From the NCBI GenBank assembly GCA_000091205.1, contig AP006486.2: a stretch of DNA of 64,000 nucleotides; one strand, 5' to 3'. The notes below the pieces were generated by a model. The model was not told where the DNA came from. It searched no databases and saw nothing but the letters and a program-made list of their open reading frames with translations. The position numbers and the translations under genes are program-made. This document shows, one piece after another, positions 3,380 through 22,208 of the stretch. This DNA is from Cyanidioschyzon merolae. Lineage: Eukaryota. Each line of letters starts with the position of its first letter. Position 1 is the stretch's first letter.

Positions 3380-6300
3380 TCAAGCAGACACTGAAGCTGA
3401 ACCCGAAACCGATGTTGACGCACTCGCAGACACCGCCGCAGAAGCTGTCGCAGACACCGTCGCAGAGGGTGTCGCTGTCGCAGCCACGGGACTCGGAGTC
3501 GGTGTTGAACTAATCACGACACACTGGTTGTTGATGCACTCCTCGTCAGCGCGGCAGCAACGCATCTTGTTCACAAGGTTATCCGAAGGGATCAGGTACG
3601 TCCCGCATTGCTTCGTAGGGTCCTTGCACACACAAAATGACGGCAGCAGCACCTGTTGTTGTTGCTGCTGTTGTTGCAATTGTTGCTGCTGTTGCAGGTT
3701 ATTGTTGTTGCTGAACGGGATGTACGTGCAGTTCTGCGTCTCGGCGTTGCAGCACTCGGGGCCGCATACAGTATAGCTCGAGTTCGATACGTTGCCCGTC
3801 GTGCCGCTCAGCGAGTTCGACACATACCCGTAGGTCTGGCACACGTACTCGGTTACCGGCTGGAAGCACTCGTTGCCGAGCCCCAGGCAGCAACCAGCCT
3901 CCAGACACTGCTGCGGCGCGTAGCTCGTGCGCTGCGTCCCGTGCTGCTCTCCGTACAGGAGCGTGTTCAGCAGACGCACAAACTGGTTGTTGTTGATGTT
4001 ATTGTTCAGCTGCTGGTTCTGATTCACCGCGTTCGTGCACGGCTGGCGCTCAAACTCGCCCACCGCGCACGTCTTCTCGGGCTGGAAGCAGTACGGGTTC
4101 GACTCAAAGTCGCTCTGCTGCTTGCCGTTCTGCACCCACTGGTTCTGCGCCTGCGAGTCGTAGCAGCAGCCCTGGGCATAGCACGTAAACTGGTTGATAC
4201 CCGCGTTGCCGCACGGCTGGCGCTGCGCTCCCGGTGATGGGCAGACGGGTACTGGTGCCTGCACCTCCTGCAGCGCTACAGAGGCCTGCGGTGCATGGTT
4301 GATGTCGTAGTAGCACCAGGGTGCCAGGATGCCGTTTGCCGTTGGCTGCCAGCAGCATCCCGGTATCGCAGTGCACTCGTCTGGATAGATATAGCTCCAG
4401 CCGCAGGGGACGCGCTGCGTCACTGGAACAGCGCTGCACGCCGCTGAGACGCTCTTCAGGGTGCACGCGTTCGTCTGGGAGTTAAAGCAGCACCCGACTT
4501 GCTCGCAAGCGTCCTGGTTTGTGTACTGGCCCGGAGAACCGCAGATTTCACTCGTGCAAACTGGTGTTGGCGTTGCACTCGGTGTCGGGGTTATAAAAGC
4601 AAGTGTCGCACCAGAGGGTAGAATTGTAGAAACCTGGTCGGTGAAAGTTTGAAGCACACTTTGCAGTTCACTGGCGAGGGATGTGTCTCCTGAGATCGTA
4701 ATCACATAGGTCACAACACTGCCGCCCGCAGTGCGCACCAATGCTCGTTCCAGACGAAGATTGCTCTTGTCTAATGTGGTGGCGAGGCGCCTTGATGTGC
4801 CCGAACCGAAGACCGTGTCGCAGTTATCAGTCACGCTGACATTCACTACCTGGCCCGTGAAGCGAGCCTCGAGATCGTTCTGCAAATCCGTCGCCACGGC
4901 CAAACACAGAGAAAGATTCTGAACGGATATCGCAATCGAGGTGGAAATCGTCGTCGGCACGATTGTTGGTGACGTTGTTGCAGTTGGAGTCATCGTCGGC
5001 GTCATCGTCACTGTCGTTGGAGACGCTGTTACAGTAATCGTTGGCGATGATGTAATTGTCGGAGTTAACGTCGCAGTCAGTGTCGGTGTCGGTGTAGGTG
5101 TCAATGTCGGTGTCGGTGTCGGTGTCGCAGTCGGTGTCGGTGTCGGTGTCGGTGTCGCAGTCGGTGTCGGTGTCGCAGTAGCAGTTGGCGTAATCGTTGG
5201 TGTCAGAGTTGGCGTTGATGTTGGCGTAGGCGTAGAGGTAGGCGTAAAGAACGTTTCACTCAGTGCGAAAACATCATTGAGATAGCCAGGTCCGCTAGTG
5301 ATTGAGTATCCAGATCCGCCAAATAGGATCGGATCGGTCCCACTTGTATTCCAGAAAGCTGGTCCAAAGCGACCACCAGGTACAACACTCGGGTCGGATT
5401 CGTTGAAAACTCCATATACTGAAAGAGCATCCACACTTTGGCTTCCATTGATCCACGCCCACTGACCAAGTGTGATATCAAATACCCACAAATCGTTCAA
5501 ATCACCGGGGCTCTCACGAGTATTCCCATATCCTTCACCACCAAAAAGTAGCAGATTACCCAAAGAATCCACAAAACTTACGCCTGAGTCTCTTGCACCT
5601 GGGTAACTGGTTGGGGAGAAAGCACCGATAGTTCCATAAGATCCTGGATTATTAATAGTGGTATTTCCTGCAATCAAAAGCCATACGGATTGACTTATGT
5701 TGTAGACCCAGAGATCATTCAAGTCCCCTTGCCCTAGTGCTGTGCTGTTTCCGTAGCCATAGCCGCCGAACAACCAGAGATTTCCTTCAAAATCTGTCCA
5801 CGTATGCGAGAAGCCGCGCGCACCTGGAGCATTTGAGTTGCTCGCCACGCCAGGTGCACTATAGTTACCAGGATGGTTAACAAGTTGTGATCCGCCTCTG
5901 TATGCCCATTCGAATGTAACAGGGTTGAATGACCAAAGATCTGACAGCAAATTCCCCGCAATATCCTCACCACCAAACAACCAAAAAAGACCATCCGCAC
6001 CCAGCCAGAATGCCACGCTATCTCGGCCTCCGGGGTTGTAAATTTGACTGTAGATATCCTTCGGTCCATAGACTGGATTGGCGTTAAAAGTATCATTCCC
6101 ACTGAACCACGTCCAGATTCCCGTTTCAGTATCGTACCGCCACATGTCGTTCAGGTCTCCCGCATTACCGTTCACATCAAAGCCGTAGCCACCAAACAAC
6201 CAAAAATGGTGCTCGTCCGTCTGCCAATATGCGCTAGACTGACGGCCGCCGGGTATATTATTTGGGCTGCCTGTGCCGACTGTGCCGTACACTCCTGGTT

Positions 6301-6664
6301 GGTCAAGTTCTGAGGAACCTCCTATCCATGTCCACTCGAGCGAGGTCAGGTTGAATTTCCACAGATCATTAAGGAGGCCCTTTGCTGTGTTTCCGAACCC
6401 GAACCCGCCAAACAAGTACACTACGCTCGAACTTCCGACCCAGGCTGCAGAATAGTAACGGCCTCCTGGAACACTCTCTGGAGACGTCTGGTTCAACGTT
6501 CCATACCTGCCAAAGTTACCAGTACCCGTCTCTCCTCCTATCCAGGTCCAGCTAACCGTACTCACAGGCGACAACGCAGCCACAAGCGACACGGAAAACG
6601 TCGCCGCCAACAATAGACAAACAGCTACTCCCAGGGCACGCGCCAGAGAAAGAGCTCGAAACAT
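3380..6664 (-). CDS. Secreted mosaic protein: N-terminal signal peptide, multi-blade Kelch/galactose-oxidase-type beta-propeller, Thr/Pro-rich mucin-like linker, 3-4 trefoil (P-type)-like Cys-rich modules, poly-Gln and a Ser/Ala/Thr-rich tail
   Basis: 1094-aa uninterrupted ORF. Hydrophobic N-terminus [21 protein letters not shown]. Repeated Kelch-like blades (GGR..S/H, W.FGG.G, LNDLW motifs). A ([12 protein letters not shown])n linker is encoded by a (GTCGGT)n hexamer array. Cys modules such as [34 protein letters not shown] and [20 protein letters not shown] match the trefoil pattern CG..(I/V)...(E/Q)C....GCC(F/W/Y)...PWC. Confidence 0.7.
5075..5180. repeat. Hexanucleotide (GTCGGT)n array inside the Kelch/trefoil CDS, encoding the Thr-Pro linker
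   Basis: Direct reading of ggtgtcggtgtcggtgtcgcagtcggtgtcggtgtcggtgtcggtgtcgcag... Confidence 0.7.
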
Positions 6665-9590
6665 CTCGTTCGACGCTCTCTCAGTCCAATAAATACGGAT
6701 ATTTGTTCTTTCTCGAGTGAATATATCTTCACTATTGTTTTTTCGATATGGTCAACACGAACGTAACCGCCGTGTGTTGTGAAAGCCAAAACAACAACGC
6801 ACAACGTGATAGCGCCAAAAGCGCGGAACGCGCGCGCACTGCAGAGGAATTTGAATTGGGGTCATCATGATGCGATGAAGAATTCACGTTGATGTCGAGA
6901 CTGGAGCGTAACGGACGTAGGGAATTCGGGGTTCATAGTCCGAAATATCCAAGTTGAGAGAGGTACTGAAAGCTATATATAGGCTAGTGGGATTTCATTG
7001 GAATGAGTAACTCCCGAGTACTGCTCCTTCCAGGTGCCAGTCAGCAGGGCTCAGCAGGTCACGGCTCTAGGTAAGAAGGATAGCGAATAACGAACTATCG
7101 GTTGCTGAGGTTCGTCCACCACCCGAAACGCAGAAGTATTCCTAATGCGATTCATCTATCTTAAGTTTTCGCAAGACGATTGTGGTGGAAGTATTCCGTG
7201 TTAGACTTATTGTGTTGCAGTCCTGTTCTCGTGGTGACAGCCAAGCTGAGTAGTTGGGAGGTTTATGTAGGTCTGTACCACTGGTATTTGTCTTAGATAA
7301 GAAACATCGAATAATGAGCTCCTGCGTGTCTATTGCGAGGAAAACTAAGAAATATTTCTCGCGTGGGAAGTGGTCTCTCTTTAGGGACAGGCTGTCGCCG
7401 TTCGAAGTGGAACGCATATACGCGTACCCATGCTTCGACCTTCAACCTACGAAGCGAGAATTCGTAGGTGTTTTCTTCATCTATCCTCGTACGGCCTAAG
7501 CTTGGAGACGTGTGTGTCAACCGCTTCTGGCAAGCCGGACACCAACAAGCATTTTCAAGGCTCGCGCAGACCGGTGGTCCGCGGAGGATGCTAGCCCAAT
7601 CGGAGACTTCATAACGTTTCATCAAGTTTTCCAACAAACGCTCCGTGGCGTCTGTTTTTACATCTGCTACCTGCAATCATTTTTCTGGTGCTACAAATAA
7701 CTCTATCTATTTGAGTGTCAGCCTCACGGTATCGCGCCTACCCCGTGGTTTCTCGGTACAGAACAATACCTAGTCTCGCATCTCGGAGTGGGAACTTATA
7801 TGGACTTCGGAAAGGCATTGGTCTGAATTGGTCTTTTGACAGCAGCCAAGAAAACGCCCGAAAGTCTGCGGATTCGTTAATCGAGATCGGATCATTCGTA
7901 AATGCTTGGTCGGAGTCGCATAATATGTAACAGCTTTTCCATGACGGTGCCTAGTATCATCAAAAATCATATTCCCGGTGGCGTCGTTCCGTGACTATTT
8001 TGGTGAGTAGCGGGCAATTTAGAGGTACCATATATACCTTTGGCGACCCGATAGTTTCCCCAGCAAGATCGAGGAAAGTCTCCTCATAGTTATCGAACCA
8101 ACAGCTAGACAGAGCGACCAAGTCGACAGACCAATTCTATCTCGAATTTCCGCCTCGCTCAGGAATTTATGCCAGCACTTGTCTCGCAGTGTGCTTTTCA
8201 TAAAGCACGTTCCCCGGAACGCATCCTATTTTCTTGAACTCTCTACCCAGATACCTCGCCCTGGATTCCCTGTTCTCTTTTATCGACGTACTCGCGCGAG
8301 ATACGCTCACCGGCTCTGTCAGTGAGCGAAGCCATGATCCATTCCTTGGGCCTCTCACACTGATCTGTGTCCGATAGGCTCGCTGCTACCGCTTCATCAG
8401 AGGTTATTTGGAGCTTCTCGCATGTGAAGGCGCACTCGGGAGTCAAGAGCTTCTTCATGCTACGATTCAGCCTCTGGAATATTATACGCAATCTAACCAG
8501 CAGACTGCTTGAGTGGTTCAGCTGCTTGCCCTGCTGTATTCTGTGTGGAACGAAAACAGAATCTCAGTCCGTTCTTGCACCATGATCTTCGCAAGTTGTC
8601 CCCGGCAGTAGATGATGAATGCCTGAAACATCCTTCTATTTAACAATTTACCTTCTCGGGAGAATCTGCCTCGATCCGTTTTAATCTGTAGAGATGGTGC
8701 ACCCTGCTTCCTCGTCATAATGGCGGTGTTCAAGCACGACCCACGTTGCTCTTCTTCAGCACTGCTTCCACTGTACACACGGGGAAGGCGCCGACGGACT
8801 TCATGCCACCTTCGTAGTCCAGCGCCTTCTCTCTCGACGCTCGGTTGCTGTCGTTCGGCTTTTGCAATCTACTGATATATCCTGAAACAGCATCCGGATG
8901 CTAAGACGCACTGGTGCAAAACAATGGACTACTCCGGAACTCGTAGTACCTGTCAATACTCGGAAGTTGCCGCTCATTTTTTCCATTGTACCCATGCAGC
9001 CATTTCTTTCCCCCGGAGACTCTGGTGCGATACATCCGTCTTACGCCCGGGAAGGATCACCGAATGCATGTCATATTATGCACCAGATCCCAAAATGAGC
9101 TCCAACAATAGATATCCCCAATTCTGAACACTTTATTCTGTATTCCAGGACAAATGCGCTCTCTGCAGTTGCAGCAAATGCGCTCTACTCCGATGACGAC
9201 CGCTTCCAGCATTCTCTGGTGCATTCAGTGCGTAGCAGTTCATAGCTATCACTAGATTAATCACTATTGCATTACGCATTATGACTTACGAAGCATTGTT
9301 CGCTCTTCAAAGCAGGAGGAGCGCCATCTCGCTCGCTCAATATCCGATCGGAACTGCCGCAGGCCACCTCCTTGGTACACCGTTGCTCCCACATCTGTCC
9401 TTGAAGCAGCGGTCTGCGCTCCGAAGGCGCATCTCATTTTCATCACTAATAAACCTTACACAGGGGCCAAGACAGTCGACTTGAGGCCTCGCCTCCGTAA
9501 CGCCTGGTCGATCAGATTAAGACTCAGTTCGTAAAGCTGATCTGCCTTGTCGATTGTGTACGTTGGTTCAATAACCTGCGGTTTCGTCTT

Positions 9591-10515
9591 CTATCCCCCA
9601 TCCGTATATTTGCCACGCCACTGATAATACGAGTCCGAGTCCGGGAACTGTCCCTGGGGCGCCACTTCGGCTACGCGGCGGCCGGCCTCATCATTCGGAA
9701 CGTATTGCCGAGTGATATACTTCTGAAGAATCGGGATGAATACGTAGCGGAACCAGCCAAGCTTTTCGCGGTAGAGGTTGCTATCGGCGACAGATCCCGG
9801 GAAAATCGCCACAGAGGTCACCCCGTCGCGGCCGTATCGATCACTGAGCGCCTTCATTGTCAACACGTTCTCGGCTTTGGCGTCTTTGTAGGCTTTTGTG
9901 GGCTCAAACGGACCACTGCCTACCATGCCAGTCGTCTGCGGATCAAGCCCCGCGCCTAGACCAGACAAATCGCCGAGGCGAGCCCGCGGGGGATCGTTCC
10001 CGGCAGCGAATTCGGCGAGTGGGTCTGAGTCGTCGGAACACAATGTGCCCGCGCGATACTTTCAGCTTCGGCAACAGCTCCCGACATAGAAGCAAATGGC
10101 TCAGATGGCATACCTGCATGGTTTCCTCGATGCCGTCCACCGTGAAACGCGGTTTCTTGTCCCGCGGATGCCAGATTGCGGCATTGCAGATCAGGGCATC
10201 CAGGTGATCGACGCGCGCCACACTTGACAGCTCTCTCACAAACTTTAGTACAGAGGCGAAATCAGCCTGACCACAACGGAGCACGGTATAGGCGTCCTTT
10301 AGAAGGTTCACGCTGTTTGCTGCGCGCTCCGCCCGGTCGACGTCACGACATGCCATGACGATGTGCCAGATGCACTTGTTGATCAGAGCGTGAGCTGCAT
10401 ACAGACCGACTCCAGAGCACGCGCCCGTGATCACGGCGATCTGCGACTGTTTCGGGCCATTACGAAGATGCAGCGCGTGGTGCCGGCGCGCTACAGGCGA
10501 ACGCTGCATTACCAA
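9591..10515 (-). pseudogene. POR: Light-dependent protochlorophyllide oxidoreductase (LPOR, SDR family). The body is split over two overlapping ORFs in different frames (9943..10515 and 9591..10043), i.e. a frameshift. The upstream presequence frame also contains an in-frame TAA.
   Basis: The N-part IAVITGACSGVGLYAA...WHIVMACRD...LICNAAIW matches plant POR (VITGASSGLGL...WHVIMACRD...LVCNAAVY). The C-part PRARLGDLSGLGAGL...AYKDAKAENVLTM...GVTSVAIFPGSVADSNLYREK...FIPILQKYITRQYVPNDEAGRRVAEV matches PKANLGDLRGLAGGL...AYKDSKVCNMLTM...[25 protein letters not shown]. The switch between frames falls within about 2 codons, which leaves no room for an intron. Confidence 0.6.
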
Positions 10516-12189
10516 AGGAAGAGGACGCTGGCGGTGGTGACGATGTCCAGCTGCGAAGCAACCGTCACGAGCGGTACCCAGTGCGAACGGTGCTCTGCGT
10601 ACAGCAGGTGAGCGAACTACTCTTTAGCCCTGGTACAGCGGATCAGAGACAAACATGCCTTGTACTTTCTTGGGTTAGGTCGTCTCCGTGCGAAAGCTGC
10701 CGATCACGTCATGGGCTAGAATCGATCGCGTAAGTGTGCGTATCCAGTCAAAAACCTGTTTTGCGTAGCTGCACGAGTGATCTTCCGTCGAGTGGTGCAG
10801 ATGCCAACCTCAATCTCCGTAGACTGTCTAACTTGGAGCACAACCCGCACAAGCGCTCAACGTCAATCTCAGAAACTAGGTTAAACTCGCAGTTTTCCGA
10901 GCAACAATCTCGTCAGTACTAGTCGCAATGCGTTCCGCAACGTTGAGTTCAAAGATCACAATGATCGTTGAGGAACGTCGCTGCAGCTCACCGATGAATA
11001 ACGTAGCGGAGGTACAAGAGACTAACATCCGGTGGTAGTTTTTTTGGAAGCGCCTGCACGTCAGTTGGACACGTTACGTCTAGGGCGGGTCACTCGCCAC
11101 TACTGTACACGGCCGACGACGATGTTTTTCTTTTCAAGGGCATGTGTAGTTGGTTGTGTCGCTTCCGGGCTCGCTGTACTGGTTAGGCTCTTGAATCTAA
11201 TCTTATAGAGTAGATCAGAATACAGTATGTGCTTTTGTCGGATGCCTCGATCGTTCAAGGCGAGATGCAATGCTCAAACGTCGTGGCAGATATAGATGCA
11301 ATATGTTAGCTACGCCTCTGCCAAGATCACCGGATCAATTGACGTAGCGGGGACCATAAGTTAGACAACGAAGCAGCATGGCAATGACCTGAGCTCTCAT
11401 CAGTACCAGCCCCTGACGCAGGAAAGAAGCACAATTCAGGCCAGTTCTTTATTCCGGTGTCCGTGCAGGATGCATAGCAAGCCTAGGGAATAAACTTATA
11501 TCCGTGTTCGAGAACACTACCGTACCTATTACGGTTACGACCAATACAACTGAAGAAACTCTTATTGAGTAGAGTGTTGCATATCTTATCCACACAAGTG
11601 CAAGCCGCAGAGGAAGATACGCGTGTGATAGAAGCATCGCGGGGTATCGTTCCAGGCCCCTGCATCCCCTTGTCTGGCAGGGCAGTGCTGCGATGGGCAG
11701 CAGCGTCGGCACCAGCGACATAACCTATAGCAAGAGTGCATTCTACGGGAGTTTCCAGTCTACGATACCTTATGTTTTGCGGCAGTGCGATGCGAACACG
11801 CATGTGCCAAGGCGGGGTGTCGGACACGTGTCCTTCATCGATCGGAGTAGCGTTTCGCGCAGTGCACGCATCGCGCTCGGTGAGTGCACCTCGGGGATCA
11901 GACAGACATGAGACACGACGCGCGTGCCGCTGTTCAAGGGAAACGTGATCTCGATCAGAAGCGTGTTGTTCAGCTGTAAAAAGTTGGATTTCCGTTGAGG
12001 ACATAGCAAAGTAGAGTTTTCCTTTCGTTTTTGTTCCGAAATTAAACCAGACTAGTCAAGTGTTTTTTCGCTGTATATAACAGAAGCGTTCAAAGAGCGT
12101 TCTTTTCAAAAAAAGGAAAGCTATCACAGAGCAAGTCCACGATCCTGGAGGCCCAGGTTCGCAGGCTGCCAGAAAAAGAACATAAAACG

Positions 12190-14330
12190 GTGTCGAGTCC
12201 CGAAGAAAAGGAAGAGAAGAAGGACCGAAAGCAGGAGGCCCTACGTCGAAGGCGGCAAGAAAGACGACTGTACGACGAGAATATGGTGAAAACTTTCTTT
12301 CTTGGACATATCAAGGATCCCTGTAGGGAAAAGTTGCGAGACGCCATTGAAAAACGTGTTGACTCGTACTCGAAGAGTATTGTAAAGACGTTTTCAGGAC
12401 TAATGCATTTGGCGAGGGAGATGTATCGCGACGTAACGCAAATGGAAACAGTCGATGTTCCTGACGCGTTCTTCGATAGGACATGTATTCGATACCTGAT
12501 GCTTGGCACAGCGGAAGCGCGGAGGGAAACTCAGCTAGTGTATGCCCTCCACGAAAAGTTCGCGGAATTCCGCTCCGAGGCTACCCGACACAGGGGTGAA
12601 TGTTGTATTTACGAATACATGGCAATGGGGTGCCTCACGAATGTGAGGAGCCTTAAGATCTTAAACGTCGTTTCGTTCATGATACGCGTTCTCTTTGCGC
12701 TCTACCCGTGCCTTTTTCGGGAAGGGATTCGAGGAACCATCGATGGTATCAAGAACGATTCCCAGCATGAACGGGATATGAACTTTGTTGAGAAGAGGAC
12801 ATCACGGTGGAGAAAGAACGAGGCTTCTGTTCTCCGCTCTACCATTTAAAGGCATCGTTCGGTCTTGGAGCTTGGCACCCCAAGAGAAACACTTTCAGAT
12901 ATGAGAAAAGAAGAGAGATGTTCCCCCCCTCATCCTGCCTCACTTCATGTTATTTGACCGAGAACTCCGACGGAAGGCCCAAATAGAGCTAAGTATGGAA
13001 AAAATGACGGGTGGGAGAAACGGCATTGAAGTGGTTTTCCAGAAGCGCTTCAATTTCGTTTTTTATGCGAGTTCAAGTCGCATTTTGTGATTATCGACTG
13101 TAGAGGCCTTTTACGACTTCATGAAGGAGATCTATTTAGAGCTCGATGTAATAAACCGAGAGGTCATCGGCGAAAACAGGGACACCGACTAGAAGATTAT
13201 TTTCGATATCACGTGTCTCGAACCGGCCAAAAAAGGTATTCCAGCGGACAATCGATTTCGATATTGTGTACATAAGTGTACATCAAATGCTGTTGCAGGC
13301 ACTTCATCCTATCCCGTCTTCGTTATCGCCCTTGCCGAAGCACGAAAACAAGAAGACGGGCCGCGAAACGCATAGTCCCCATGAAAACGGCTTTGTCGTC
13401 GGCCCTAGCCCCTGAAACACGAGTATCATGACCTTTGCTGTACCCAAGCGTGAGTGCGATGGCACTGACCGAAACTCACGTCAGAAAGACAGCAGGATTT
13501 TGGGGATCTCACGAGAGAAATACTACCAAGAAGCGGGAATCATGAATGCAAGCAAGAAAATTGAGACATGAAATGCAGGAATGAAGGATCTCCTGGAATC
13601 TTTGAGCGAGGTGACGAGCCGAGAAGCGGATTTTGAAGCTTCTCGGAAATTCATAGAAGGTTCGCGTTGCTCATTAGGAGGTACTGTGGAAAGAATATAC
13701 AATGCCCCGGTGGGCTCGAATGCGAATGAATCTGGACTGTGGTAAGCAGCGGGCATTTGCGAATTGTTTCAGCCAGTTGTGCCCTGGAGGAGGATCAGAG
13801 TCAGATGCTCATTGTAGCGTATGGGGCAGGGCGCTGGAAGACCCAAAAAAGGTTTACGCCAGCTCCATCGACAAGAACATATAAGGAGTGCGCAAGGCGA
13901 TTCGTTACGATATAAGTAGATGAGCTTCGAATGACCTATACACACCATAAAGTGGGGTGCACACTTCAGAGAGTGGAGATGGAAAAGTGCCAGCGGAGCC
14001 CTGGGGAAACAGCAAAGTACGGACAGCTGACGAAAGAGCAAATGGAAAGAAGAGCCAAGTTCGTGGACTAGTTGCATTAGTGAGTACAACCCGCAACGGC
14101 ACGAAACAGATAGAGTTTGGGGATCGAGACTTTAACGCCGCCATCAATGGAAGGAAATGCGCGGTGCTGGAGAAAAGACCTCCAAAGTGGACACGAGGGA
14201 TCTTTATTGGACAACCTCTCAGAGTCGAACTATATGAGAAAAAAATTGGAAGCAGTCGTGGGTGGCCGGTCGAGAAAGACTGAGATGCGTTTGCACGTCA
14301 GCTGGAGACTTCTTGTCTAGGGCGCCGGTC
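12190..14330 (+). mobile_element. Degraded TnpB/Fanzor-like (IS200/IS605 OrfB family) element relic. A KR-rich N-terminal ORF (12190..12849) is followed by broken frames and a C-terminal RuvC-III-like motif at 14119..14182.
   Basis: ORF 13957..14283 encodes ...KQIEFGDRDFNAAINGRKCAVLEKRP, matching the TnpB/Fanzor RuvC-III signature (D.NAA.NI..RG). A second paralogous relic lies at 49959..50960 with nucleotide identity 24/25 over cgagacNttaacgccgccatcaat. The region is an AT-richer island and the usual CxxC...CxxC zinc finger is absent, suggesting decay. Confidence 0.4.
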
Positions 14331-14439
14331 ACCACTACTGTACACCGCTGGCGGCTACAACGTTATTCTTTTCAAAGACGTTTGTTTCCAGGGATGAATA
14401 CTGAGCGTCCACAGCAGCACACCTCTCCTTCGAACGCGT

Positions 14440-17400
14440 CTAGTTCATGAAACCGACACAACCCGGCTCGCCGCATAGACATGGGATTTTCATCGCATTG
14501 TCTACGTCGAACATGTAGTTGTAGGTCAGCTCCTCGCCGCGTTTAATCGCTCGAGCGCTGCGAATAACAATCACATCCTGCTTCGGTTCGTCGCTGATTC
14601 GCAGGATTTCGCTGTAGCAATTCGGACGACAAGAATGGTTAATATAGCGTGCGACGCTCCCAATCATTGTCGCATCAATCACCCAATCAGCATCTATACG
14701 AAACATGTAGCACCCAATGCCACGGCGCTCGTAGTGGCGCTCCCGAACGTCGGCCACTGGTGAGGCAATCCGCTCTCCAGCGTACTCAACGATCATCTGA
14801 TCGGCTTGGAGGTCACAGCGCGCAAACAAACCGAACCCGTGGATTCGAGAGCGCAACGGAACACAGTACTTGCGGTGTTCGAGCTGCATCTGTCGATACA
14901 GCCGACGATCAGTTGCCGTTGCAGAGACTACTCGCCAGGCGTCTCGCCTTGGAGGCACACGATCCTGCTCTGGACGTGATCGCAGTGCGCTGCACGCCCG
15001 CTCTGCAGACCCCGGGATATCGGATGCAGCTGATCGCTGTGCAAGGAGCGGGTCATATGCTGCTCCCGCTAACGCACGCTCAAACACTTCCAGGGATCGA
15101 TGCACAGGTGCAAGCTTACTCCATTTTGACTCGTTACTCGGGCGCAAGTACAGGGAACAACGTGCTGCGCCCGCGGATCGCGCTGTCGGGGATGCACCTC
15201 CGACGTCGTGGTCCGGAGAGGTATCCGCGGGCACCGACGCCAACATGCTCGTGGCTAGGTGCTGCACCAGCACCGGCACAGGGCAAAAGAAGCGCTCCGC
15301 AAGTGCCTGACGTTCTTCTGTCGATCGTTCAGCGATGCACTTGGTGAAAAGATGCGTCAAGCGCGCCGGAAGACGCGCTGCCCACAACCGCAGCACACGG
15401 GATATCATCTGGTGCCATAGCGCAGTGATGCACACGCCACTTAACCGATCGTGCGGTGCATCCAGAGCGCACAGCGAGTACCGCGGCTCGTGCGCTACGT
15501 CCGCTGTGCAACTGATAAAGTAAAGCGTTCGTTCAAAGGGTCGGATCATACTCCAAAAGCGCCGCGCTAGGTAACAATCTGGCGGCAGTCGCCACTGAGC
15601 TTCTGTCGATTCCAGCGATGTGCAGTCCAGCGCACCGTAATCGAGCAGTGTCCAGGCACCGACTCGCAATGCTGGTCTCGCATTTAGCGACAAACCGCGT
15701 ACATCCGACGGCAAAGAGTGACCCATACTCGAAAAGGGAAAACTCCACCCCGAGGGTGCAAGTCCAGCTGTCGCCTCGCGACCAAGCAGCGAGCGATGCT
15801 TCCAACACCAGCACAGGCTGCGATGATCGGAGCATTCCCACATAGCATCAGCACCAGCAGCGTTAGCATGTGTCGCTACACAGCGTACGTGAAAGACTTG
15901 GGTACAGCCCAAAAAAGAGCAGAACACAGAGGCACCCGTACGACGACACACAGAACACTTTCTGGACAAGGCAGCTTGTATCGTGCGAGAAAGGCCGGCT
16001 CCCGTTTGCGTCGACAGCGCCAAACAGCCCATGTGAATCCAGCGCAGGGTGCTTTCGGAGAGTCGCAATGGCACCAGACATCCGAGCTGCGCGCTTTCAC
16101 CTCGCTCGGGGCAAGCACATAGCGCACAACGCCGACAATCGGGAACCGCACAGAGACGCGACCACACTAGGTGCTCTGCTTGTAACGCATCTGGTGTAGC
16201 ATGTGGCGCTTGAACCCCAAACGAGGCGGATACACGCTGGCCCAGCGGCCGGCAGACAGTGACTTCAGGCACTGGGTCACGAGTTCCGTATTGGCTTAGT
16301 GAGGTATCGTTCCCCATCAAACACACCGTGTTCTCCTGCACTCCAGTTTCTGCTTCACAATTCGCAAGCATCATGTGCGCATCGATATACACCGAGTTTT
16401 GCGAATGAAGATGTTCTGCTTCGAAGGAGTTTTCCTGCTTCATCACGAGCGGCGTCCGATCGGTGCCCTCTATCCGCGTACCTGAGGCCAAGTGCGAAGC
16501 GAACGCTCCGTCTTGCACGCTCGTCAAAGCGCACGCGCCCAATGGTAGCTGTGCCTCGCACGATACATCCCGCAACCGCGTTCCCGCGAGGCAGTCTCGT
16601 AAAGGGTCTGCGCACTCAGATTCCATAGCGTCCGCATTGCACGCTAGAAGAGGTGCCTCAGAGACACGCCCCTGGCCTGAGGAGCTGCTCACCTTCGGCG
16701 AACGTGAGCAAGCAGGGCCCGTTGCCGCCAGCGTACCGGGAACATGCTGTCGCTTGACCTGATCGCCAGGAAGCGTACTGGTTGCGTTCGAGGTTGCTGC
16801 TGCTGCTGCTGCTGCTGCTGCTTCACAATCACCGCAAAGCAGCAGTGGCATAGCACCGCCGTGGCCGCTATCCAGCCGCCGACCGCAGACAACGCACGGT
16901 ACGGACGAGAGCGTCAGCAGCCACGGAGGCTCCTGAACGGAACTTGGCTCACCACGCTGCAGAACTTGCATCGAATCCCGTTTCCATGCATTCGATTCTG
17001 AGGCATCCTGTCCCGTGTTCTTTGACGCAACGGCTGCATAGGTGCCCGCCTCCTGTTCGACACCGGCTCTGTACGAATTCCTCGGCAAAGGCAAAGCACG
17101 TCCAGGGGTATCCACCTCCGGATAAGGAACGCGCTCCGAGCCTCCGCCTCCGGTGATGCGTCGAGAAGCGGCAAAAGAAGCAGCGCCGGCAGCAGCGAAC
17201 GACACAGGTGGCCTGCGCTTCACAGCGCCAAACGCGGAGGAGTCAGGTACGGCCTCGTTATCCATACAGGGCGCTTGCATCGAGTGATCGACCTCCAGAG
17301 GCACCTCCGAGTCGTTATGCTCGGTTCCTGTGTTCCATAGAACCTGTTCGGACCGTTCTATACTGGATTCGGTTGGTGTTCCTTGACGATCCGCAGGGTG

Positions 17401-20172
17401 ACAGGATGATTCTGCTTCAGGTACAGATGGCAGTGGTATGGAGACGGCGCAGCTGGTACAATTCGGGATCACGCGAATCGGACCCAAGTCCAGCAGATGC
17501 AGCCGACCTGAAGACGACTCGTACTGCTGCTCTTGATGCTGGCATTCCGCGTGATACGCCTCGCCACAAAGCCAGCAAAAGAGCGCCGATGCGCCTGATT
17601 CGTCCACGGTGCCATGACACAGCGCGCAAACATCCCGCTCGAGCGGAATCAGAATTCGGCAAGGAATCAGCGGATCGACTTGAGGTTGAGGAGGTACTTC
17701 CCAGTCGAGCACACCCATCACCTGGGCGTTAGTCTGGTACTCGAGTTGTGCGCGCTCATCGTGGACAACGGAGCGATCATGGCAGCCTGAGTCGATGCGT
17801 TCGCTTGGCGTTCGACACGGTGCAACGAACAGACTACCCGGCTTGCCCGGGACGTTACTTTCGGAAGCAGTCACCTGAGAGCCTGCAGCTGGCGCCGTCT
17901 CTGTGGCAGCGGCCGCGGACAGCGACATCTGGACAAGACTGGTACCCTCGGATGGAGTAGATACTGTCATCAGAGCGTCTGCAGTGACAGCGGATACTCG
18001 CTTTGCCCTCTTGGTCCCATCCGGGCGTGAATGCAACCGAGAGCGTTCGAGTGCCTCCAGCGTGCGCTCCGCAAACGTTACCCAGGACAATGGCTCACAG
18101 TCACCGAACTGAAGCTCTCGTGTGAGCTCCCACAAGCGGTAATTCTCCTGCTCCGTAGTGGCCTCCGAGTGGTGACGACGCTTCCTTTGCCTGCCGGTCA
18201 CCGAATTGCGCTTACCAAGTGCATCATCACCGCGAAACTGAACCTGGGCAACAACACTGCCTCGAGGTGTCTGCAGTGCAGTATCCTGCGGAACCTGCCG
18301 GGAAGCGCGCTCCCCGTTTGCTGATTCCCCTCTGCCGAAACGTACACCGCCGTGCTGCTGCAGTTTTCTCGAAAAGTTTAGCCGCATCACAGCGCTTACC
18401 TGGGACGCTCCAGTCTCCTGCCCCACTGAGTGGCCGCCTTGTCTAGAGGAGAGCGCGTTTTTGGAGTCCCCGGAAGCGCCGCCACCAGCACCGGAAGGAC
18501 CGGTGTGCGTCGCCACCTCACGATCGTACACCTCGACGGGTACCGAACAACGCGAGACATTCCTCGACTGCCCTGTACGAGCGCCGTAACTCGGTTCAAC
18601 GGTACACTCGGACGCGCATGAGGCTCGAAGCTCCGCAAAATCCTTCACAGCGCTTTCGTTCGATGCAGCGGGACTGCTGGTCAGCGCAGATGCCAAGTGA
18701 GCTCGCTCCGGCGATGTTACAGCATCTTGTTGCTGCAAGCGTCGACGAGAAGCTGTATTGACAAGGTGCGTATCCGGACAAGCGTCCGGACGGCGTTTCC
18801 TGGACTTTGTGGGTCGTCTCGCTCGCACAGGGACCGTTTCAATCGCCAAAAATGGACTGTGGAGCTGGAGATCAGAGCGCTTACCACCATCTCCACCACT
18901 GCGAGGTTGTTTGTCGGGATTGTATGTGGCCAGAGGGCGAAGTCGCTCGCCCTGGTGTTCCATGTTCGCAGGCGAGACTTCCGGGACACGCTGGACAAGA
19001 GCGGCGTCAGTTTGTATTTTCTTCATAATCAAGCGCTTTCTCTTGGTGCTCGCATCGTCACAAGTGTTTTGCTGCATCAGCGGCGTCTGTGAATACCAAC
19101 TAGCAGGCGCAGCTAGCGAGCCAATGATATGAGAAACCTCCCGGCATACGCGAGACTTGCGCTGCGGGTGCCTCTTCCATGCAGGTCCACGGTTTGCTGG
19201 AGACGGCACTGCTGGCGTCGCGGTTGCCAGTCCGGTATGGCGGTGGCGGTATTGCTTCCGCCCGGTTGCTGTTTGAACAGCGTGCCCGGTATCCATGCCG
19301 TGCTCATTGTACACCTGCAAAGCGTCACGGCTATCGTTGTGCTCGATTTGCTTCCAATCGCGGGCACCAGACTGTCGTCCGCGACTTGTCCATGAATGCG
19401 TAGACACTGCTTGAGCATTCTCGACACCTGCTGCTCCGTTGCCGCGCTTCAAGCGCCGCTGCGACGGCGCTCTACGAGCGCTTCGCTCAGAAGACGCTTT
19501 GGTTGATTCTGGGGGTGCACTTGCCGTTTCATCCCGACGTTTTGCAGCCAGATGCTGTCGATCCTTTGCAGTGGACACGCTCGCATCAATGCATCCATTC
19601 GGGGATGCGTCTCTTCGAACAGCACGGCCCTTGACAGCCTCTAACTGAACCAGCAGATTAGCGCTGGCCGGCACATCGAGCGTGGCAAGCTCCGAGCCCC
19701 TAAAAAAGCCACATTCCTCAGCGTCCTTCCGGTGAAGACAACAAAAAACCTGTCGTCGTCGCTTACACACAGCAGCACCAACTTTCAGTGCACAGCGCAG
19801 GTGGTAGTACGTCCAGCAGGTTCTCGGACTGCGGTAAGCGCAGGTGATGGTCCCACCAGGTTGTCCACAAACACTGCAGCGAATCGAGTTGCCCCGACGC
19901 ACGACAGAGCCCACCAGGAGCTCATCGATTTCGTTTCGACCCTGACACTCGGCACTGAAGCGCACACACTCTTCATGTACATAAATAGGTTTCTTTGCTG
20001 GTGGTTTGGGTTTCAGTGGCCCCAGTAACTTACCTTCTATACCGCTTGCGTCCTGGTCTAGGCCGCACAGTGCACAGCGTACGCTATCCGCAACGTGCGC
20101 TCCATCCTTCCGTCGACGAGGATTCGCCGGTAACAACTCAGACTTTGACCTTGGACAGAGGCGTCGTGGCAT
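14440..20172 (-). CDS. Histone-lysine N-methyltransferase of the KMT2 (SET1/MLL/Trithorax-like) type: several PHD and extended-PHD fingers, and a C-terminal SET plus post-SET domain
   Basis: The C-terminus ...GIGCYMFRIDADWVIDATMIGSVARYINHSCRPNCYSEI...RGEELTYNYMFD...IPCLCGEPGCVGFMN carries the SET motifs NHSC and ELTYNY and a post-SET CxCxxxxC. PHD-like fingers include CALCHGTVDESGASALFCWLCGEAYHAEC and CSVCGQPGGTITCAYRSPRTCWTYYHLRCA. The ORF is 1938 aa with the track start at TTG 20256; the first in-frame ATG is at 20172. It contains a (GCT)n/poly-Gln tract near 16794-16822. Confidence 0.8.
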   Translation of the reverse strand: MPRRLCPRSKSELLPANPRRRKDGAHVADSVRCALCGLDQDASGIEGKLLGPLKPKPPAKKPIYVHEECVRFSAECQGRNEIDELLVGSVVRRGNSIRCSVCGQPGGTITCAYRSPRTCWTYYHLRCALKVGAAVCKRRRQVFCCLHRKDAEECGFFRGSELATLDVPASANLLVQLEAVKGRAVRRDASPNGCIDASVSTAKDRQHLAAKRRDETASAPPESTKASSERSARRAPSQRRLKRGNGAAGVENAQAVSTHSWTSRGRQSGARDWKQIEHNDSRDALQVYNEHGMDTGHAVQTATGRKQYRHRHTGLATATPAVPSPANRGPAWKRHPQRKSRVCREVSHIIGSLAAPASWYSQTPLMQQNTCDDASTKRKRLIMKKIQTDAALVQRVPEVSPANMEHQGERLRPLATYNPDKQPRSGGDGGKRSDLQLHSPFLAIETVPVRARRPTKSRKRRPDACPDTHLVNTASRRRLQQQDAVTSPERAHLASALTSSPAASNESAVKDFAELRASCASECTVEPSYGARTGQSRNVSRCSVPVEVYDREVATHTGPSGAGGGASGDSKNALSSRQGGHSVGQETGASQVSAVMRLNFSRKLQQHGGVRFGRGESANGERASRQVPQDTALQTPRGSVVAQVQFRGDDALGKRNSVTGRQRKRRHHSEATTEQENYRLWELTRELQFGDCEPLSWVTFAERTLEALERSRLHSRPDGTKRAKRVSAVTADALMTVSTPSEGTSLVQMSLSAAAATETAPAAGSQVTASESNVPGKPGSLFVAPCRTPSERIDSGCHDRSVVHDERAQLEYQTNAQVMGVLDWEVPPQPQVDPLIPCRILIPLERDVCALCHGTVDESGASALFCWLCGEAYHAECQHQEQQYESSSGRLHLLDLGPIRVIPNCTSCAVSIPLPSVPEAESSCHPADRQGTPTESSIERSEQVLWNTGTEHNDSEVPLEVDHSMQAPCMDNEAVPDSSAFGAVKRRPPVSFAAAGAASFAASRRITGGGGSERVPYPEVDTPGRALPLPRNSYRAGVEQEAGTYAAVASKNTGQDASESNAWKRDSMQVLQRGEPSSVQEPPWLLTLSSVPCVVCGRRLDSGHGGAMPLLLCGDCEAAAAAAAAATSNATSTLPGDQVKRQHVPGTLAATGPACSRSPKVSSSSGQGRVSEAPLLACNADAMESECADPLRDCLAGTRLRDVSCEAQLPLGACALTSVQDGAFASHLASGTRIEGTDRTPLVMKQENSFEAEHLHSQNSVYIDAHMMLANCEAETGVQENTVCLMGNDTSLSQYGTRDPVPEVTVCRPLGQRVSASFGVQAPHATPDALQAEHLVWSRLCAVPDCRRCALCACPERGESAQLGCLVPLRLSESTLRWIHMGCLALSTQTGAGLSRTIQAALSRKCSVCRRTGASVFCSFLGCTQVFHVRCVATHANAAGADAMWECSDHRSLCWCWKHRSLLGREATAGLAPSGWSFPFSSMGHSLPSDVRGLSLNARPALRVGAWTLLDYGALDCTSLESTEAQWRLPPDCYLARRFWSMIRPFERTLYFISCTADVAHEPRYSLCALDAPHDRLSGVCITALWHQMISRVLRLWAARLPARLTHLFTKCIAERSTEERQALAERFFCPVPVLVQHLATSMLASVPADTSPDHDVGGASPTARSAGAARCSLYLRPSNESKWSKLAPVHRSLEVFERALAGAAYDPLLAQRSAASDIPGSAERACSALRSRPEQDRVPPRRDAWRVVSATATDRRLYRQMQLEHRKYCVPLRSRIHGFGLFARCDLQADQMIVEYAGERIASPVADVRERHYERRGIGCYMFRIDADWVIDATMIGSVARYINHSCRPNCYSEILRISDEPKQDVIVIRSARAIKRGEELTYNYMFDVDNAMKIPCLCGEPGCVGFMN

Positions 20173-20699
20173 CGACGCCAGCACAAGTGCTAGCGTCAAT
20201 TGCGGACTTCGCTTCCTCCCGACACGTTTAGGTACAAGTAGCCAACTACCTGACAACAGCGAGACCTAGAGTTTAACGAAAACGCAGCACACGTCAACTC
20301 CAGTGGACTCAACTGCGCTCTAAGTACCGAGCGATACCAACAGACCTGCACTTGATCAGGTCCTCCCTGTATACCACCAAAGTCTGGAGGTTTTCCCCAG
20401 ACCAAACGACACCACGACAACCCGTAGAGGCGAATAGCGCGCGCAAAGCCTTTCTTGCCGCTTCGTACTCGGCAGTGCGGCGCCAAAAGGGTACGCGCTG
20501 AACCTGCAACTGCGTCGCCTTTGCTGGGCAGCGATATATGCGCTTTGCCCAGCTTTTGGCACTGGACAGGTCTCCGGGCACGCTGTTTTGCAGTTCAAGG
20601 GCCAACATCGGCACGGACGCTGTGCAACAGCGGCACTTGGGGCCTAACGCTGTCCTCCCGTGACTGGCACGACCCCGGACTGGTTTGCGCTTTTCGAAG

Positions 20700-22208
20700 A
20701 TGCAATCTACGGGGAATACGCTCCTCGGACGCAGCTGCAGGTTACTGCGACTGCGACTGCAGTTGCATAATCATCATCGTCCACAACAGCAGCAGCAGCA
20801 ACAGTCGATTCGTCTGATTCACCGGACAATACCTTCATGGAACAGACATGGCGGAGCCAAGTCAAGCGAGAGCTACGCGCGCACCCCTGAACGACGAGGT
20901 GCTCGCTACTCATCGGTAACGAGCTGGCAGGCCAAGTGCTTGCCATCACTGCGCGGTGCTCCAGGACGACGCAACAGCCGCTGGGCCTCTGTGCTGAACT
21001 CCGCTCTACTATTTGTGTCTGGTGCACTGGTCGTAACTCTGCCCAGCTGGTGTAGCACCGAGTGGTGGCGGTTGCCACTCGGCTCTTTCTGGAAACGCTT
21101 TCAAGCACAGGCGGCAGCGCTTGGTGACGCGCTGAGCGCTGAGGCGTCCGCGGCACAACCTGAAGCGAGCGCTGGACTTCCGAGTATACGCGATAAGCCG
21201 CTGACGCGCTTCGCAATCGCAGACGCGGCAGCTCGTGTTGCCCCGGCAGTTGTCAACATCACCGTCACGGTATCGACGGGTGATCGCTGGCTCTTTGGAC
21301 CTTTTGCGCCTCCGACAACGCTCGCCCAGTCCACTGGTTCGGGATTCATCTTCGACAGTAACGAGGGACTGGTGCTCACCAATGCACATGTTGTTGCGGA
21401 AATGCGCAACGCACCCCAGACGAGTGCGTTGACGGTTACGCTGCAGGATGGACGCTCTTTCTCGGGTGCCGTCGAGAGCGTCGATGCACTCACGGATCTC
21501 GCCATCGTTCGAATTCTGGACCCGGGAACAGACTTGCCGGCAGCCGAATTGGGTGAGTCGAGCGCGTTACGAACTGGCGAATGGGTGATTGCTGTTGGGA
21601 GTCCATTGATGCTTGCGAACACAGTGACCTGCGGGATTGTGAGTGCGACCAACAGAGAGGGTTTCGAGATTGGCTTTCCAGTGGGAGCGCCGCGGTTGGC
21701 CTTTATTCAGACGGATGCGGCGATCAATATCGGCAACAGTGGTGGCCCTCTGGTGAATCTCGACGGTCACGTGATTGGGATTAACACGCTGAAAGCGCTC
21801 AGTTCGGATGGGATCTCGTTTGCACTGCCCATTGATCTCGCCAAGGAGGTAATCCGGCAGCTACGCCAGCACGGTCGAGTGGTGCGTCCGTTTCTAGGCC
21901 TCAAACTACTCACGCTGACACCGGCGCTTGCCGAGGAATTACGACGACGTTCGAGCAGCGGCTTTCCGCCCGATGTGAACGAGGGCGTATGTGTGCCGCA
22001 GGTTCTCCCGGGTGGACCGGCGGAGCGCGGTGGACTTCGCGCTGGTGACGTGATCGTTGCCATCGATGGACAACCTGTTCGTAGCACCCGCGAGATCTTG
22101 GATCTGCTGGGGAATCGGGTAGGACATGCGATCGAGTTTACAGTGATTCGCGGACGTAGAGGCCAGCGAATCACGCTGCAGATTACGCCAGAGCAAGCCA
22201 AAGGCTGA
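20700..22208 (+). CDS. HtrA/DegP-family trypsin-like serine protease with a C-terminal PDZ domain (HtrA2/Omi-like), an N-terminal poly-Gln stretch and one predicted TM helix
   Basis: Catalytic-triad context GSGFIFDSNEGLVLTNAHVV ... D ... GNSGGPLVNLDGHVIGINT. PDZ-like GVCVPQVLPGGPAERGGLRAGDVIVAIDGQPV. Hydrophobic segment LNSALLFVSGALVVTLPSW. First ATG at 20700 (track start 20685 is TTG). Confidence 0.8.
   Translation: MQSTGNTLLGRSCRLLRLRLQLHNHHRPQQQQQQQSIRLIHRTIPSWNRHGGAKSSESYARTPERRGARYSSVTSWQAKCLPSLRGAPGRRNSRWASVLNSALLFVSGALVVTLPSWCSTEWWRLPLGSFWKRFQAQAAALGDALSAEASAAQPEASAGLPSIRDKPLTRFAIADAAARVAPAVVNITVTVSTGDRWLFGPFAPPTTLAQSTGSGFIFDSNEGLVLTNAHVVAEMRNAPQTSALTVTLQDGRSFSGAVESVDALTDLAIVRILDPGTDLPAAELGESSALRTGEWVIAVGSPLMLANTVTCGIVSATNREGFEIGFPVGAPRLAFIQTDAAINIGNSGGPLVNLDGHVIGINTLKALSSDGISFALPIDLAKEVIRQLRQHGRVVRPFLGLKLLTLTPALAEELRRRSSSGFPPDVNEGVCVPQVLPGGPAERGGLRAGDVIVAIDGQPVRSTREILDLLGNRVGHAIEFTVIRGRRGQRITLQITPEQAKG

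What the first reader, a model, noticed from the sequence alone, without database searches (positions are those of the whole stretch)
9591..10660. LPOR gene disrupted by a frameshift and by an in-frame stop in the presequence
Homology to protochlorophyllide reductase runs continuously across two ORFs in different frames, which overlap at 9943-10043. The frame switch lies between HIVF and LAEFAAGN (corresponding to LIIVGSITGNTNTLAGN in plant POR). No intron can sit there, so it is a 1-nt indel. Upstream, the only ATG that would give a transit-peptide-length extension (about 10656) is separated from the enzyme body by a TAA (about 10624). This is either a subtelomeric pseudogene copy of an essential chlorophyll-synthesis gene or an assembly error.
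Basis: seen in the sequence. Interest (0 to 1): 0.5.

Follow-up and report, generated by a model that had tools for sequence, protein, structure and literature searches.

The report
Dead subtelomeric copy of chlorophyll gene
This is a decayed, non-functional extra copy of the light-dependent protochlorophyllide reductase gene near the left end of Cyanidioschyzon merolae chromosome 4, one of many such broken copies at this alga's chromosome ends, so it is real but ordinary.

Summary
The window is the left end of C. merolae 10D chromosome 4: a telomere repeat at bases 1-26 and exact matches to four annotated proteins of the 513,455-bp chromosome.

The relic spans 10665..9456, not 10660..9591, and has five disabling lesions:
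- the ancestral ATG is now GTA;
- an in-frame TAA at codon 14;
- two separate 1-nt deletions 45 nt apart, with a 15-codon stretch read in the third frame;
- an in-frame TAG 135 nt before the ancestral stop.

A conserved Cys (FPGC motif) is also Ser.

The start loss and the TAA recur in two independently assembled environmental contigs of the same locus, and the TAG in the one that reaches it. The C-run deletion recurs in other paralogues. Only the T-run deletion is unconfirmed.

Polarised substitutions are neutral on this branch (dN/dS about 0.9) and constrained on the intact branch (about 0.07). A 430-bp tract is a gene-conversion mosaic from another paralogue.

Annotated intact-looking POR genes exist elsewhere (CMG217C, CMN338C, CMD190C). 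Subtelomeric POR copies were described by Nozaki et al. 2007.

Verdict: a genuine unprocessed pseudogene, with low novelty.

The parts
1..26 (.). Telomere repeat: CCCCCATT, CCCCCCATT and a degenerate CCCCCAATT, the reverse complement of AATGGGGGG
   Evidence: AATGGGGGG is the C. merolae telomere unit (Nozaki 2007, PMC1955436).
3380..6664 (-). Intact 1094-aa Kelch + Trefoil ORF, the 'T' (trefoil factor) gene of the subtelomeric element
   Evidence: Pfam Kelch 1.9e-27 and Trefoil 1.9e-12. The legend of Nozaki Fig. 3 lists T and P genes at chromosome ends.
3470..14380 (.). Repeated subtelomeric block that has paralogous copies elsewhere. Chromosome-specific DNA begins with the SET-domain gene at 14440..20256.
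   Evidence: blastn of 47 fetched loci against the window gives a paralogue depth of up to 33 over 9-11 kb and zero beyond about 14.4 kb.
9456..10665 (-). POR (LPOR) pseudogene, from the ancestral start position to the ancestral stop
   Evidence: 91% nucleotide identity to the intact POR CDS in L001 over 1212 nt.
10663..10665 (-). Ancestral start codon ATG mutated to GTA
   Evidence: Shared with L007 and L008.
10624..10626 (-). In-frame TAA at codon 14 of the transit peptide
   Evidence: Shared with L007 and L008.
10037..10038 (-). 1-nt deletion in a T run (TTT to TT, CDS position 628), the first frameshift
   Evidence: Not seen in any other copy retrieved, so it is either specific to 10D or a base-call error.
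9988..9992 (-). 1-nt deletion in a C run (C6 to C5, CDS position 675), the second frameshift
   Evidence: The same deletion is in L035, L037 and L039.
9792..9794 (-). Conserved Cys codon of the FPGC motif changed from TGT to TCT (Ser)
   Evidence: It aligns with the YPGC motif of AtPORB. The environmental orthologue L007 has TTT (Phe) here.
9591..9593 (-). Premature TAG (GAG to TAG, codon 359)
   Evidence: Shared with L007 and L014.
9634..10059 (-). Gene-conversion or recombination tract (CDS 607-1034) whose nearest relative is a different paralogue (L035, 98.4%) rather than the orthologue L007 (91.8%)
   Evidence: Differences to L007 are 35/426 inside the tract and 3/778 outside (Fisher p = 1.6e-13).
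11483..12004 (-). 173-aa ORF upstream of the pseudogene, with no Pfam match. It was used here as an anchor to fetch orthologous contigs.

Best explanation
The feature is an unprocessed, duplicated pseudogene of the nuclear gene for light-dependent NADPH:protochlorophyllide oxidoreductase. It lies 9.5-10.7 kb from the telomere at the left end of C. merolae 10D chromosome 4.

It arose when a subtelomeric block carrying POR and its flanks was copied between chromosome ends. This happened after the Cyanidioschyzon/Cyanidiococcus split. The copy has since evolved without protein-level constraint. It lost its start codon, gained two nonsense codons and two 1-nt homopolymer deletions, and replaced a conserved Cys.

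It continues to exchange sequence with other POR copies by ectopic gene conversion. It makes no enzyme. Chlorophyll synthesis relies on the annotated full-length copies at other chromosome ends.

Shown: the lesions, their presence in independent assemblies, the neutral substitution pattern, the mosaic tract, and the repeated block. Inferred: the duplication mechanism and transcriptional silence (H3K27me3 is published for this end only in general terms).
For: - Identity of the window: exact matches to BAM79109, BAM79110, BAM79113 and BAM79114 on the 513,455-bp chromosome, which is chromosome 4, and a telomere repeat at 1-26.
- Homology includes non-coding flanks: about 190 bp upstream and 90 bp downstream of the CDS align to the intact copy. 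The wider block at about 3.5-14.4 kb is repeated.
- Five disabling lesions.
- Independent assemblies of the orthologous locus share the start loss and TAA-14 (L007 from JGI 3300005573, L008 from ENA), and L007 also shares TAG-359.
- The C-run deletion is also present in L035, L037 and L039.
- Polarised with the Cyanidiococcus-type outgroup L004, the window branch has 10 synonymous and 29 non-synonymous changes (dN/dS about 0.92). The intact branch has 9 and 2 (about 0.07).
- The TIGR01289 score drops from 311.7 bits for intact P0001 to 253.6 bits for the frame-corrected relic.
- Annotated full-length paralogues exist, and the plastid lacks LIPOR.
- None of the eight candidate ORF products tested is in a 15-billion-protein collection, which includes the NCBI C. 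merolae proteins.
- In hot-spring metagenomes, 18 or more of 21 distinct full-length copies carry stops or frameshifts.
- Nozaki 2007 lists POR as a gene of the subtelomeric elements.
Against: - The T-run deletion at 10038-10037 is not seen in any other sequence and sits in a homopolymer, so that one lesion could be a base-call error.
- I could not read the other 39 chromosome ends of 10D, read pile-ups, or RNA-seq. Lack of expression is therefore not shown.
- The pairwise dN/dS to the intact copy is 0.36. It looks constrained until it is polarised. The polarised counts are small (39 changes, 12 sites unpolarised).
Confidence: 0.93

Rival explanations
1. Assembly or sequencing error: the locus is really an intact, functional POR gene, and the disruptions are artefacts of the reference sequence.
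For: Both frameshifts are 1-nt losses in homopolymer runs, which is a typical error signature. The T-run deletion is unique to this sequence.
Against: The start loss and TAA-14 are reproduced in two independent metagenome assemblies, and TAG-359 in one of them. The C-run deletion is seen in three other paralogues. There are 29 non-synonymous against 10 synonymous changes on this branch. The mosaic is coherent with real paralogues at 98.4% identity. Even with both deletions repaired, the gene has no start codon and two stop codons.
Confidence: 0.02
2. The locus is still expressed as protein by recoding (two +1 frameshifts and stop-codon readthrough), or as a shorter enzyme from the internal ATG at 10509.
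For: In the environmental orthologue L007 the frameshifts are absent, and a 306-aa ORF from the internal ATG (V53M) to TAG-359 is called as a gene with an adh_short domain. The NADPH-binding motif GACSGVG and the catalytic YKDAK are retained.
Against: Such a product would lack the transit peptide and the last 45 residues. The conserved Cys is Ser in 10D and Phe in L007. In 10D it would need two frameshifts plus readthrough, and I identified no recoding signal at either site. dN/dS is about 0.9 (window) and 0.8 (L007). The lesion patterns differ between copies, as expected for decay and not for a conserved recoding device.
Confidence: 0.02
3. It is a non-coding but useful sequence. The pseudogene array would act as a reservoir of donor and acceptor sequence for gene conversion with the functional POR genes, or as a buffer or heterochromatin element at chromosome ends. 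This is not exclusive with pseudogene status.
For: There is a clear conversion mosaic: the window's tract at CDS 607-1034 derives from an L035-like paralogue, and L007's tract from an L014-like one. Many copies are kept at contig and chromosome ends with the same orientation. H3K27me3 covers 36 of 40 ends, and two of the four exceptions are 7R and 14R, which are chromosomes carrying intact POR genes.
Against: Gene conversion among subtelomeric repeats is expected as a passive by-product. There is no evidence that conversion reaches the functional copies or is selected. The intact branch shows strict purifying selection with almost no non-synonymous input.
Confidence: 0.08

Closest known systems
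C. merolae functional POR genes CMG217C (BAM79708.1, chromosome 7) and CMN338C (BAM81403.1, chromosome 14), plus CMD190C on chromosome 4
   Same: The relic shares about 91% nucleotide and 87% amino-acid identity over the whole 403-codon gene, and the similarity extends into the flanks. It has the same transit-peptide and mature-enzyme layout, the same LPOR-specific loop, and the YKDAK catalytic motif.
   Different: It has no start codon, two nonsense codons and two frameshifts. The conserved Cys is Ser. The substitution pattern is neutral. It is not annotated as a CDS.
Subtelomeric homologous elements of C. merolae (Nozaki et al. 2007, BMC Biol 5:28), which carry 'P' (POR), 'T' (trefoil factor), 'H' (hedgehog) and other genes
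   Same: It lies next to the AATGGGGGG telomere repeat, within a block of about 11 kb that is repeated elsewhere. It contains a T gene and a P sequence.
   Different: The paper's text names the PH elements (6L, 7R, 8L, 8R, 11L, 14R, 18R, 19R) but does not mention 4L. It does not say which P copies are dead, and the word pseudogene does not occur in it. Its Figure 3 could not be read.
Subtelomeric gene duplications in Cyanidiophyceae (Cho et al. 2023, Nat Commun 14:10) and subtelomeric gene families in yeast, Plasmodium and trypanosomes
   Same: Genes spread between chromosome ends, selection on the duplicates is relaxed, and the ends carry H3K27me3.
   Different: Cho et al. emphasise adaptive amplification of functional genes. 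The terms protochlorophyllide, pseudogene and gene conversion are absent from that paper's main text. Here the duplicate is plainly dead and shows conversion.
Light-dependent protochlorophyllide oxidoreductase structures (AtPORB 7JK9/9TL6; cyanobacterial 6R48, 6RNV, 6L1H)
   Same: The intact paralogue aligns end to end with these structures at E=1e-66 to 1e-77. The region hit by the frameshifts is the LPOR-specific loop, TLAGNVPPKANLGDL in AtPORB.
   Different: The relic cannot encode this fold as one chain.

Membership tests
LPOR (TIGR01289, SDR superfamily) | Full-length sequence similarity to the LPOR profile | tested here: inconclusive
   The frame-corrected conceptual translation scores 253.6 bits (E=3e-75) over profile positions 2-312 of 315. 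This is below the curated cutoff of 331.35. The intact C. merolae PORs also fall below it, at 310-312 bits. The cutoff is therefore not diagnostic for this lineage. The relic loses about 58 bits relative to its intact paralogue.
LPOR (TIGR01289, SDR superfamily) | Gly-rich NADPH-binding motif and catalytic YxxxK | tested here: met
   GACSGVG (GASSGVG in the intact copy) and YKDAK are readable in the two ORFs.
LPOR (TIGR01289, SDR superfamily) | LPOR-specific insertion loop in one frame with the rest of the enzyme | tested here: not met
   The loop-coding DNA is present, but it is split across three frames by the deletions at 10038-10037 and 9992-9988.
LPOR (TIGR01289, SDR superfamily) | Conserved Cys of the (F/Y)PGC motif | tested here: not met
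   TGT to TCT (Ser) at 9794-9792. The motif aligns with YPGC of AtPORB. The functional importance of this Cys is from my own knowledge of the LPOR literature and was not tested here.
LPOR (TIGR01289, SDR superfamily) | Uninterrupted ORF with a start codon and plastid transit peptide | tested here: not met
   ATG to GTA at 10665-10663, TAA at 10626-10624 and TAG at 9593-9591.
Unprocessed (duplicated) pseudogene | Homology to a functional paralogue that extends into non-coding flanks, with no poly(A) or retroposition signature | tested here: met
   The 5' and 3' flanks align to L001. Homology to the paralogous loci spans a block of about 11 kb.
Unprocessed (duplicated) pseudogene | Multiple independent disabling lesions | tested here: met
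   There are five lesions. Four are corroborated in other assemblies or paralogues.
Unprocessed (duplicated) pseudogene | Neutral substitution pattern on its own branch | tested here: met
   dN/dS is about 0.92 (10 synonymous, 29 non-synonymous) on this branch, against about 0.07 on the intact branch. The changes were polarised with L004. The counts are small.
Unprocessed (duplicated) pseudogene | No functional transcript or protein | not testable with these tools
   No RNA-seq, ChIP or proteome data could be queried. The literature says only that 36 of 40 ends, with 4L not among the exceptions, carry H3K27me3.
C. merolae subtelomeric homologous element (Nozaki 2007) | Lies next to the AATGGGGGG telomere repeat | tested here: met
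   Window 1-26.
C. merolae subtelomeric homologous element (Nozaki 2007) | Homologous to other chromosome ends of the same genome | tested here: inconclusive
   The other 10D chromosome ends could not be fetched. As a proxy, the 14 loci from metagenome contigs longer than 20 kb (13 contigs, one with a copy at each end) all have the 3' end of the POR copy within 7.4 kb of a contig end and facing that end. The block at 3.5-14.4 kb is repeated in these contigs.

The most novel reading that the evidence does not exclude
The dead subtelomeric POR copies may not be mere debris. They could form an actively recombining pool that exchanges tracts with the two or three functional POR genes, which also sit at chromosome ends. 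If so, gene conversion with pseudogenes, or epigenetic choice among ends (7R and 14R are among the few ends free of H3K27me3), would shape the sequence or dosage of the only protochlorophyllide-reducing enzyme in an alga that lacks LIPOR.
Probability: 0.08. Interest if true: 0.45.

Novelty: new member of a known kind. Interest (0 to 1): 0.2.

Why it matters
It matters little for biology at large. A subtelomeric duplicate of a housekeeping gene that has decayed is what subtelomeres are expected to produce, and the POR-bearing subtelomeric elements of C. merolae were published in 2007.

It has three modest uses:
- It is an annotation note for a model genome. Chromosome 4 left end, 9456-10665, should be flagged as a POR pseudogene with five lesions.
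- It shows that all annotated functional copies of an essential chlorophyll-synthesis gene sit at chromosome ends, among many dead copies that still undergo gene conversion.
- It warns that POR copy numbers in Cyanidiales genomes and hot-spring metagenomes are inflated by pseudogene fragments, several of which the JGI source labels 'protochlorophyllide reductase'.

Tried and rejected
- Exact look-ups of the two annotated C. merolae POR proteins to fetch their chromosomal DNA found nothing on record. I therefore could not verify their positions or compare chromosome ends within 10D.
- Look-ups of eight possible ORF products of the relic, intended to find an independent assembly of 10D carrying the same frameshifts, found none. 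The T-run deletion stays unverified.
- The Mikulski 2017 supplements held here contain no entries for CMD001-003, CMD190, CMG217 or CMN338. Locus-level H3K27me3 could not be read.
- Rfam, tRNA and tandem-repeat scans of the window found nothing relevant to the finding.
- No fetched metagenome locus reaches a telomere repeat. 'Subtelomeric' for those copies therefore rests on proximity to contig ends.
- I rejected an intron at the frame switch. The shifts are exact 1-nt gaps in an otherwise collinear alignment.
- I rejected an alternative genetic code. Other genes in the window translate exactly to the annotated proteins under the standard reading.
- I do not use the TIGR01289 cutoff as a membership criterion, because the intact paralogues also fail it.

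Full report
**What the window is.** The window starts with CCCCCATT, CCCCCCATT and CCCCCAATT. This is the reverse complement of AATGGGGGG, the telomere unit reported only for Cyanidioschyzon merolae (Nozaki et al. 2007, PMC1955436). Four ORFs of the window are exact matches to C. merolae 10D proteins BAM79109, BAM79110, BAM79113 and BAM79114. All four lie on a 513,455-bp record, which is the length of chromosome 4. The window is therefore the left end (4L) of chromosome 4 of strain 10D, and the finding lies 9.5-10.7 kb from the telomere.

**Checking the observation.** The ATG at 10656 and the in-frame TAA at 10626-10624 are also as described.

A frame-corrected conceptual translation matches the LPOR profile TIGR01289 over positions 2-312 of 315 (E=3e-75). 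It is 87% identical over its whole length to a protein cluster that contains the two NCBI-annotated C. merolae PORs, BAM81403.1 and BAM79708.1.

**Lesions found by DNA alignment.** I aligned the DNA to an intact copy, L001, which encodes P0001. P0001 belongs to the same 90% cluster as BAM81403.1 and differs from it at only a few residues.
- The ancestral ATG is GTA at 10665-10663.
- TAA replaces codon 14 at 10626-10624.
- One T is missing from a TTT run at 10038-10037.
- One C is missing from a C6 run at 9992-9988.
- Codon 359 is TAG (from GAG) at 9593-9591. Homology then continues for 135 nt to the ancestral TAA at 9458-9456.
- The Cys codon of the FPGC motif is TCT (Ser) at 9794-9792.
- The Met at the start of the mature region (MGPKQ) is Asn.

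Between the two deletions the true reading, TTQTHSPNSLPGTIP, lies in the third frame. tblastn with the intact protein gives three HSPs in three frames. The plant segment TLAGNVPPKANLGDL corresponds to SLPGKIPPQARLGDL.

**Real lesions or assembly error?** I used the neighbouring 173-aa ORF (11483..12004) as an anchor to fetch independent assemblies of the same locus.
- L007 is the end of a 176-kb JGI hot-spring metagenome contig. It is collinear with window 22008..8929 at 98.3% identity.
- L008 (ENA) covers the 5' part of the relic.
- Both carry GTA in place of ATG, the TAA at codon 14 and the Met-to-Asn change. L007 also carries TAG-359.
- The C-run deletion is absent from L007 but present in three other paralogous copies: L035, L037 and L039.
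- Only the T-run deletion is unique to the window, and I could not find an independent 10D assembly to check it.

Even if that one base were an error, the gene would still have no start codon, two nonsense codons and one frameshift.

**Selection.** I polarised substitutions with a Cyanidiococcus-type orthologue (L004, encoding P0003; a 397-aa member of its protein cluster is annotated in the C. yangmingshanensis genome).
- The window's branch has 10 synonymous and 29 non-synonymous changes in the mature region, giving dN/dS of about 0.92.
- The intact copy's branch has 9 and 2, giving about 0.07.
- The unpolarised pairwise value of 0.36 is the average of a neutral branch and a constrained branch.

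The relic has therefore evolved neutrally for essentially all of its separate history. The profile score falls from 311.7 bits for the intact copy to 253.6 bits. The curated cutoff of 331 bits is failed even by the intact Cyanidiales enzymes, so I do not use it.

**Mosaic structure.**
- Against its orthologue L007, the window differs at 3 of 778 sites outside CDS 607-1034 and at 35 of 426 sites inside it (Fisher p = 1.6e-13).
- Inside this tract (window 10059..9634) the window is 98.4% identical to L035, a different paralogue. It shares the C-run deletion, the Ser codon and the Leu-to-Pro change next to the T run with L035.
- L007's tract is 98.1% identical to yet another paralogue, L014.

At least one of the two orthologous loci has therefore been overwritten by ectopic gene conversion since the strains diverged. 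I cannot say which.

**Context.**
- The block from about 3.5 to 14.4 kb is repeated in many other loci. Unique DNA begins with a SET-domain gene at 14440..20256.
- The block also holds an intact Kelch-Trefoil ORF at 3380..6664. This is the 'trefoil factor' T gene that Nozaki et al. list, together with P (POR), among the genes of the subtelomeric homologous elements.
- A scan of metagenome contigs returned 35 POR-bearing loci. In the 14 loci from contigs longer than 20 kb (13 contigs, one with a copy at each end), the 3' end of the copy lies within 7.4 kb of a contig end and faces that end. The window has the same orientation.
- Of 21 distinct full-length copies, at least 18 carry nonsense codons or uncompensated frameshifts, in many different combinations. 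The sample is biased by my pseudogene-derived query, so this fraction is indicative only.

**Where the working genes are.**
- The C. merolae database annotates three POR genes: CMD190C, CMG217C and CMN338C (Hunsperger et al. 2015, supplement).
- The CMG217C alignment sequence printed in that supplement agrees with BAM79708.1 (P0133), which lies on the 584,452-bp chromosome 7. BAM81403.1 lies on the 852,727-bp chromosome 14, which matches the chromosome letter of CMN338C; that assignment is an inference.
- The plastid genome has no chlL, chlN or chlB, so POR is the only route to chlorophyllide.
- Nozaki et al. place 'PH' elements at 7R and 14R, among other ends.
- Mikulski et al. 2017 found H3K27me3 at 36 of 40 chromosome ends. 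The exceptions are 3L, 7R, 14R and 16R.

That the two best-conserved POR genes sit at two of the four unmarked ends is suggestive. I infer their positions from gene numbering and the PH list and did not verify them. The 4L end is not among the exceptions.

**Comparison with what is known, and novelty.** This is an unprocessed pseudogene within a published family of subtelomeric repeats. The searchable text of Nozaki 2007 does not use the word pseudogene. The main text of Cho et al. 2023 does not mention pseudogenes, gene conversion or protochlorophyllide. Neither text names the 4L copy. The lesion map, the neutral rate and the conversion tract may therefore be new details, but the kind of object is familiar.

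**Verdict.** Interest is low (0.2).

Noticed in passing
Literature cross-check; no window coordinates: The ends of chromosomes 7 and 14 that carry the annotated intact POR genes (CMG217C, CMN338C) are two of only four chromosome ends reported to lack an H3K27me3 domain at the very tip. The gene positions are inferred from gene numbering and were not verified.
   Followed up: partly
L030 and L031 (the two ends of JGI contig Ga0080006_1178247, 76,260 bp): The same metagenome contig ends in a POR copy at both ends. The copies are in inverted orientation, both are cut at CDS position 850, and both carry TAG at codon 278. This is either a short linear element or chromosome fragment with terminal inverted POR copies, or an assembly artefact.
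   Followed up: no
window 3380..6664 (-), with a repeat at 5076-5175: There is an intact 1094-aa Kelch + Trefoil ORF with a GTCGGT x 16.7 hexanucleotide array in its linker. The translation from the first ATG is not in the protein collection, although other window genes match 10D annotations exactly. The annotated start may differ, or the gene may be unannotated.
   Followed up: partly
window 11483..12004 (-): A 173-aa ORF with no Pfam match lies inside the repeated subtelomeric block. Its exact sequence is conserved in six environmental contigs but is absent from the NCBI C. merolae proteins. It is unclear whether it is a gene.
   Followed up: partly
P0005 / L026 and L028 (metagenome): Some environmental POR copies carry a +1 insertion at CDS 844 that is compensated by a -1 deletion at CDS 945. 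This gives a full-length 403-aa ORF with about 34 scrambled residues across the FPGC region. Gene callers and the JGI annotation label such products protochlorophyllide reductase.
   Followed up: no
P0165 (JGI, 485 aa): This is a chimeric product. POR residues 1-304 are fused after REKRG to an unrelated Lys/Glu-rich tail. P0008 (304 aa) ends at the same REKRG residues, which suggests a recurrent rearrangement breakpoint in the family.
   Followed up: no
window 1-14000 compared with the rest: G+C is lower (0.47-0.54) in the subtelomeric block than in the chromosome-specific part (mostly 0.55-0.61).
   Followed up: no
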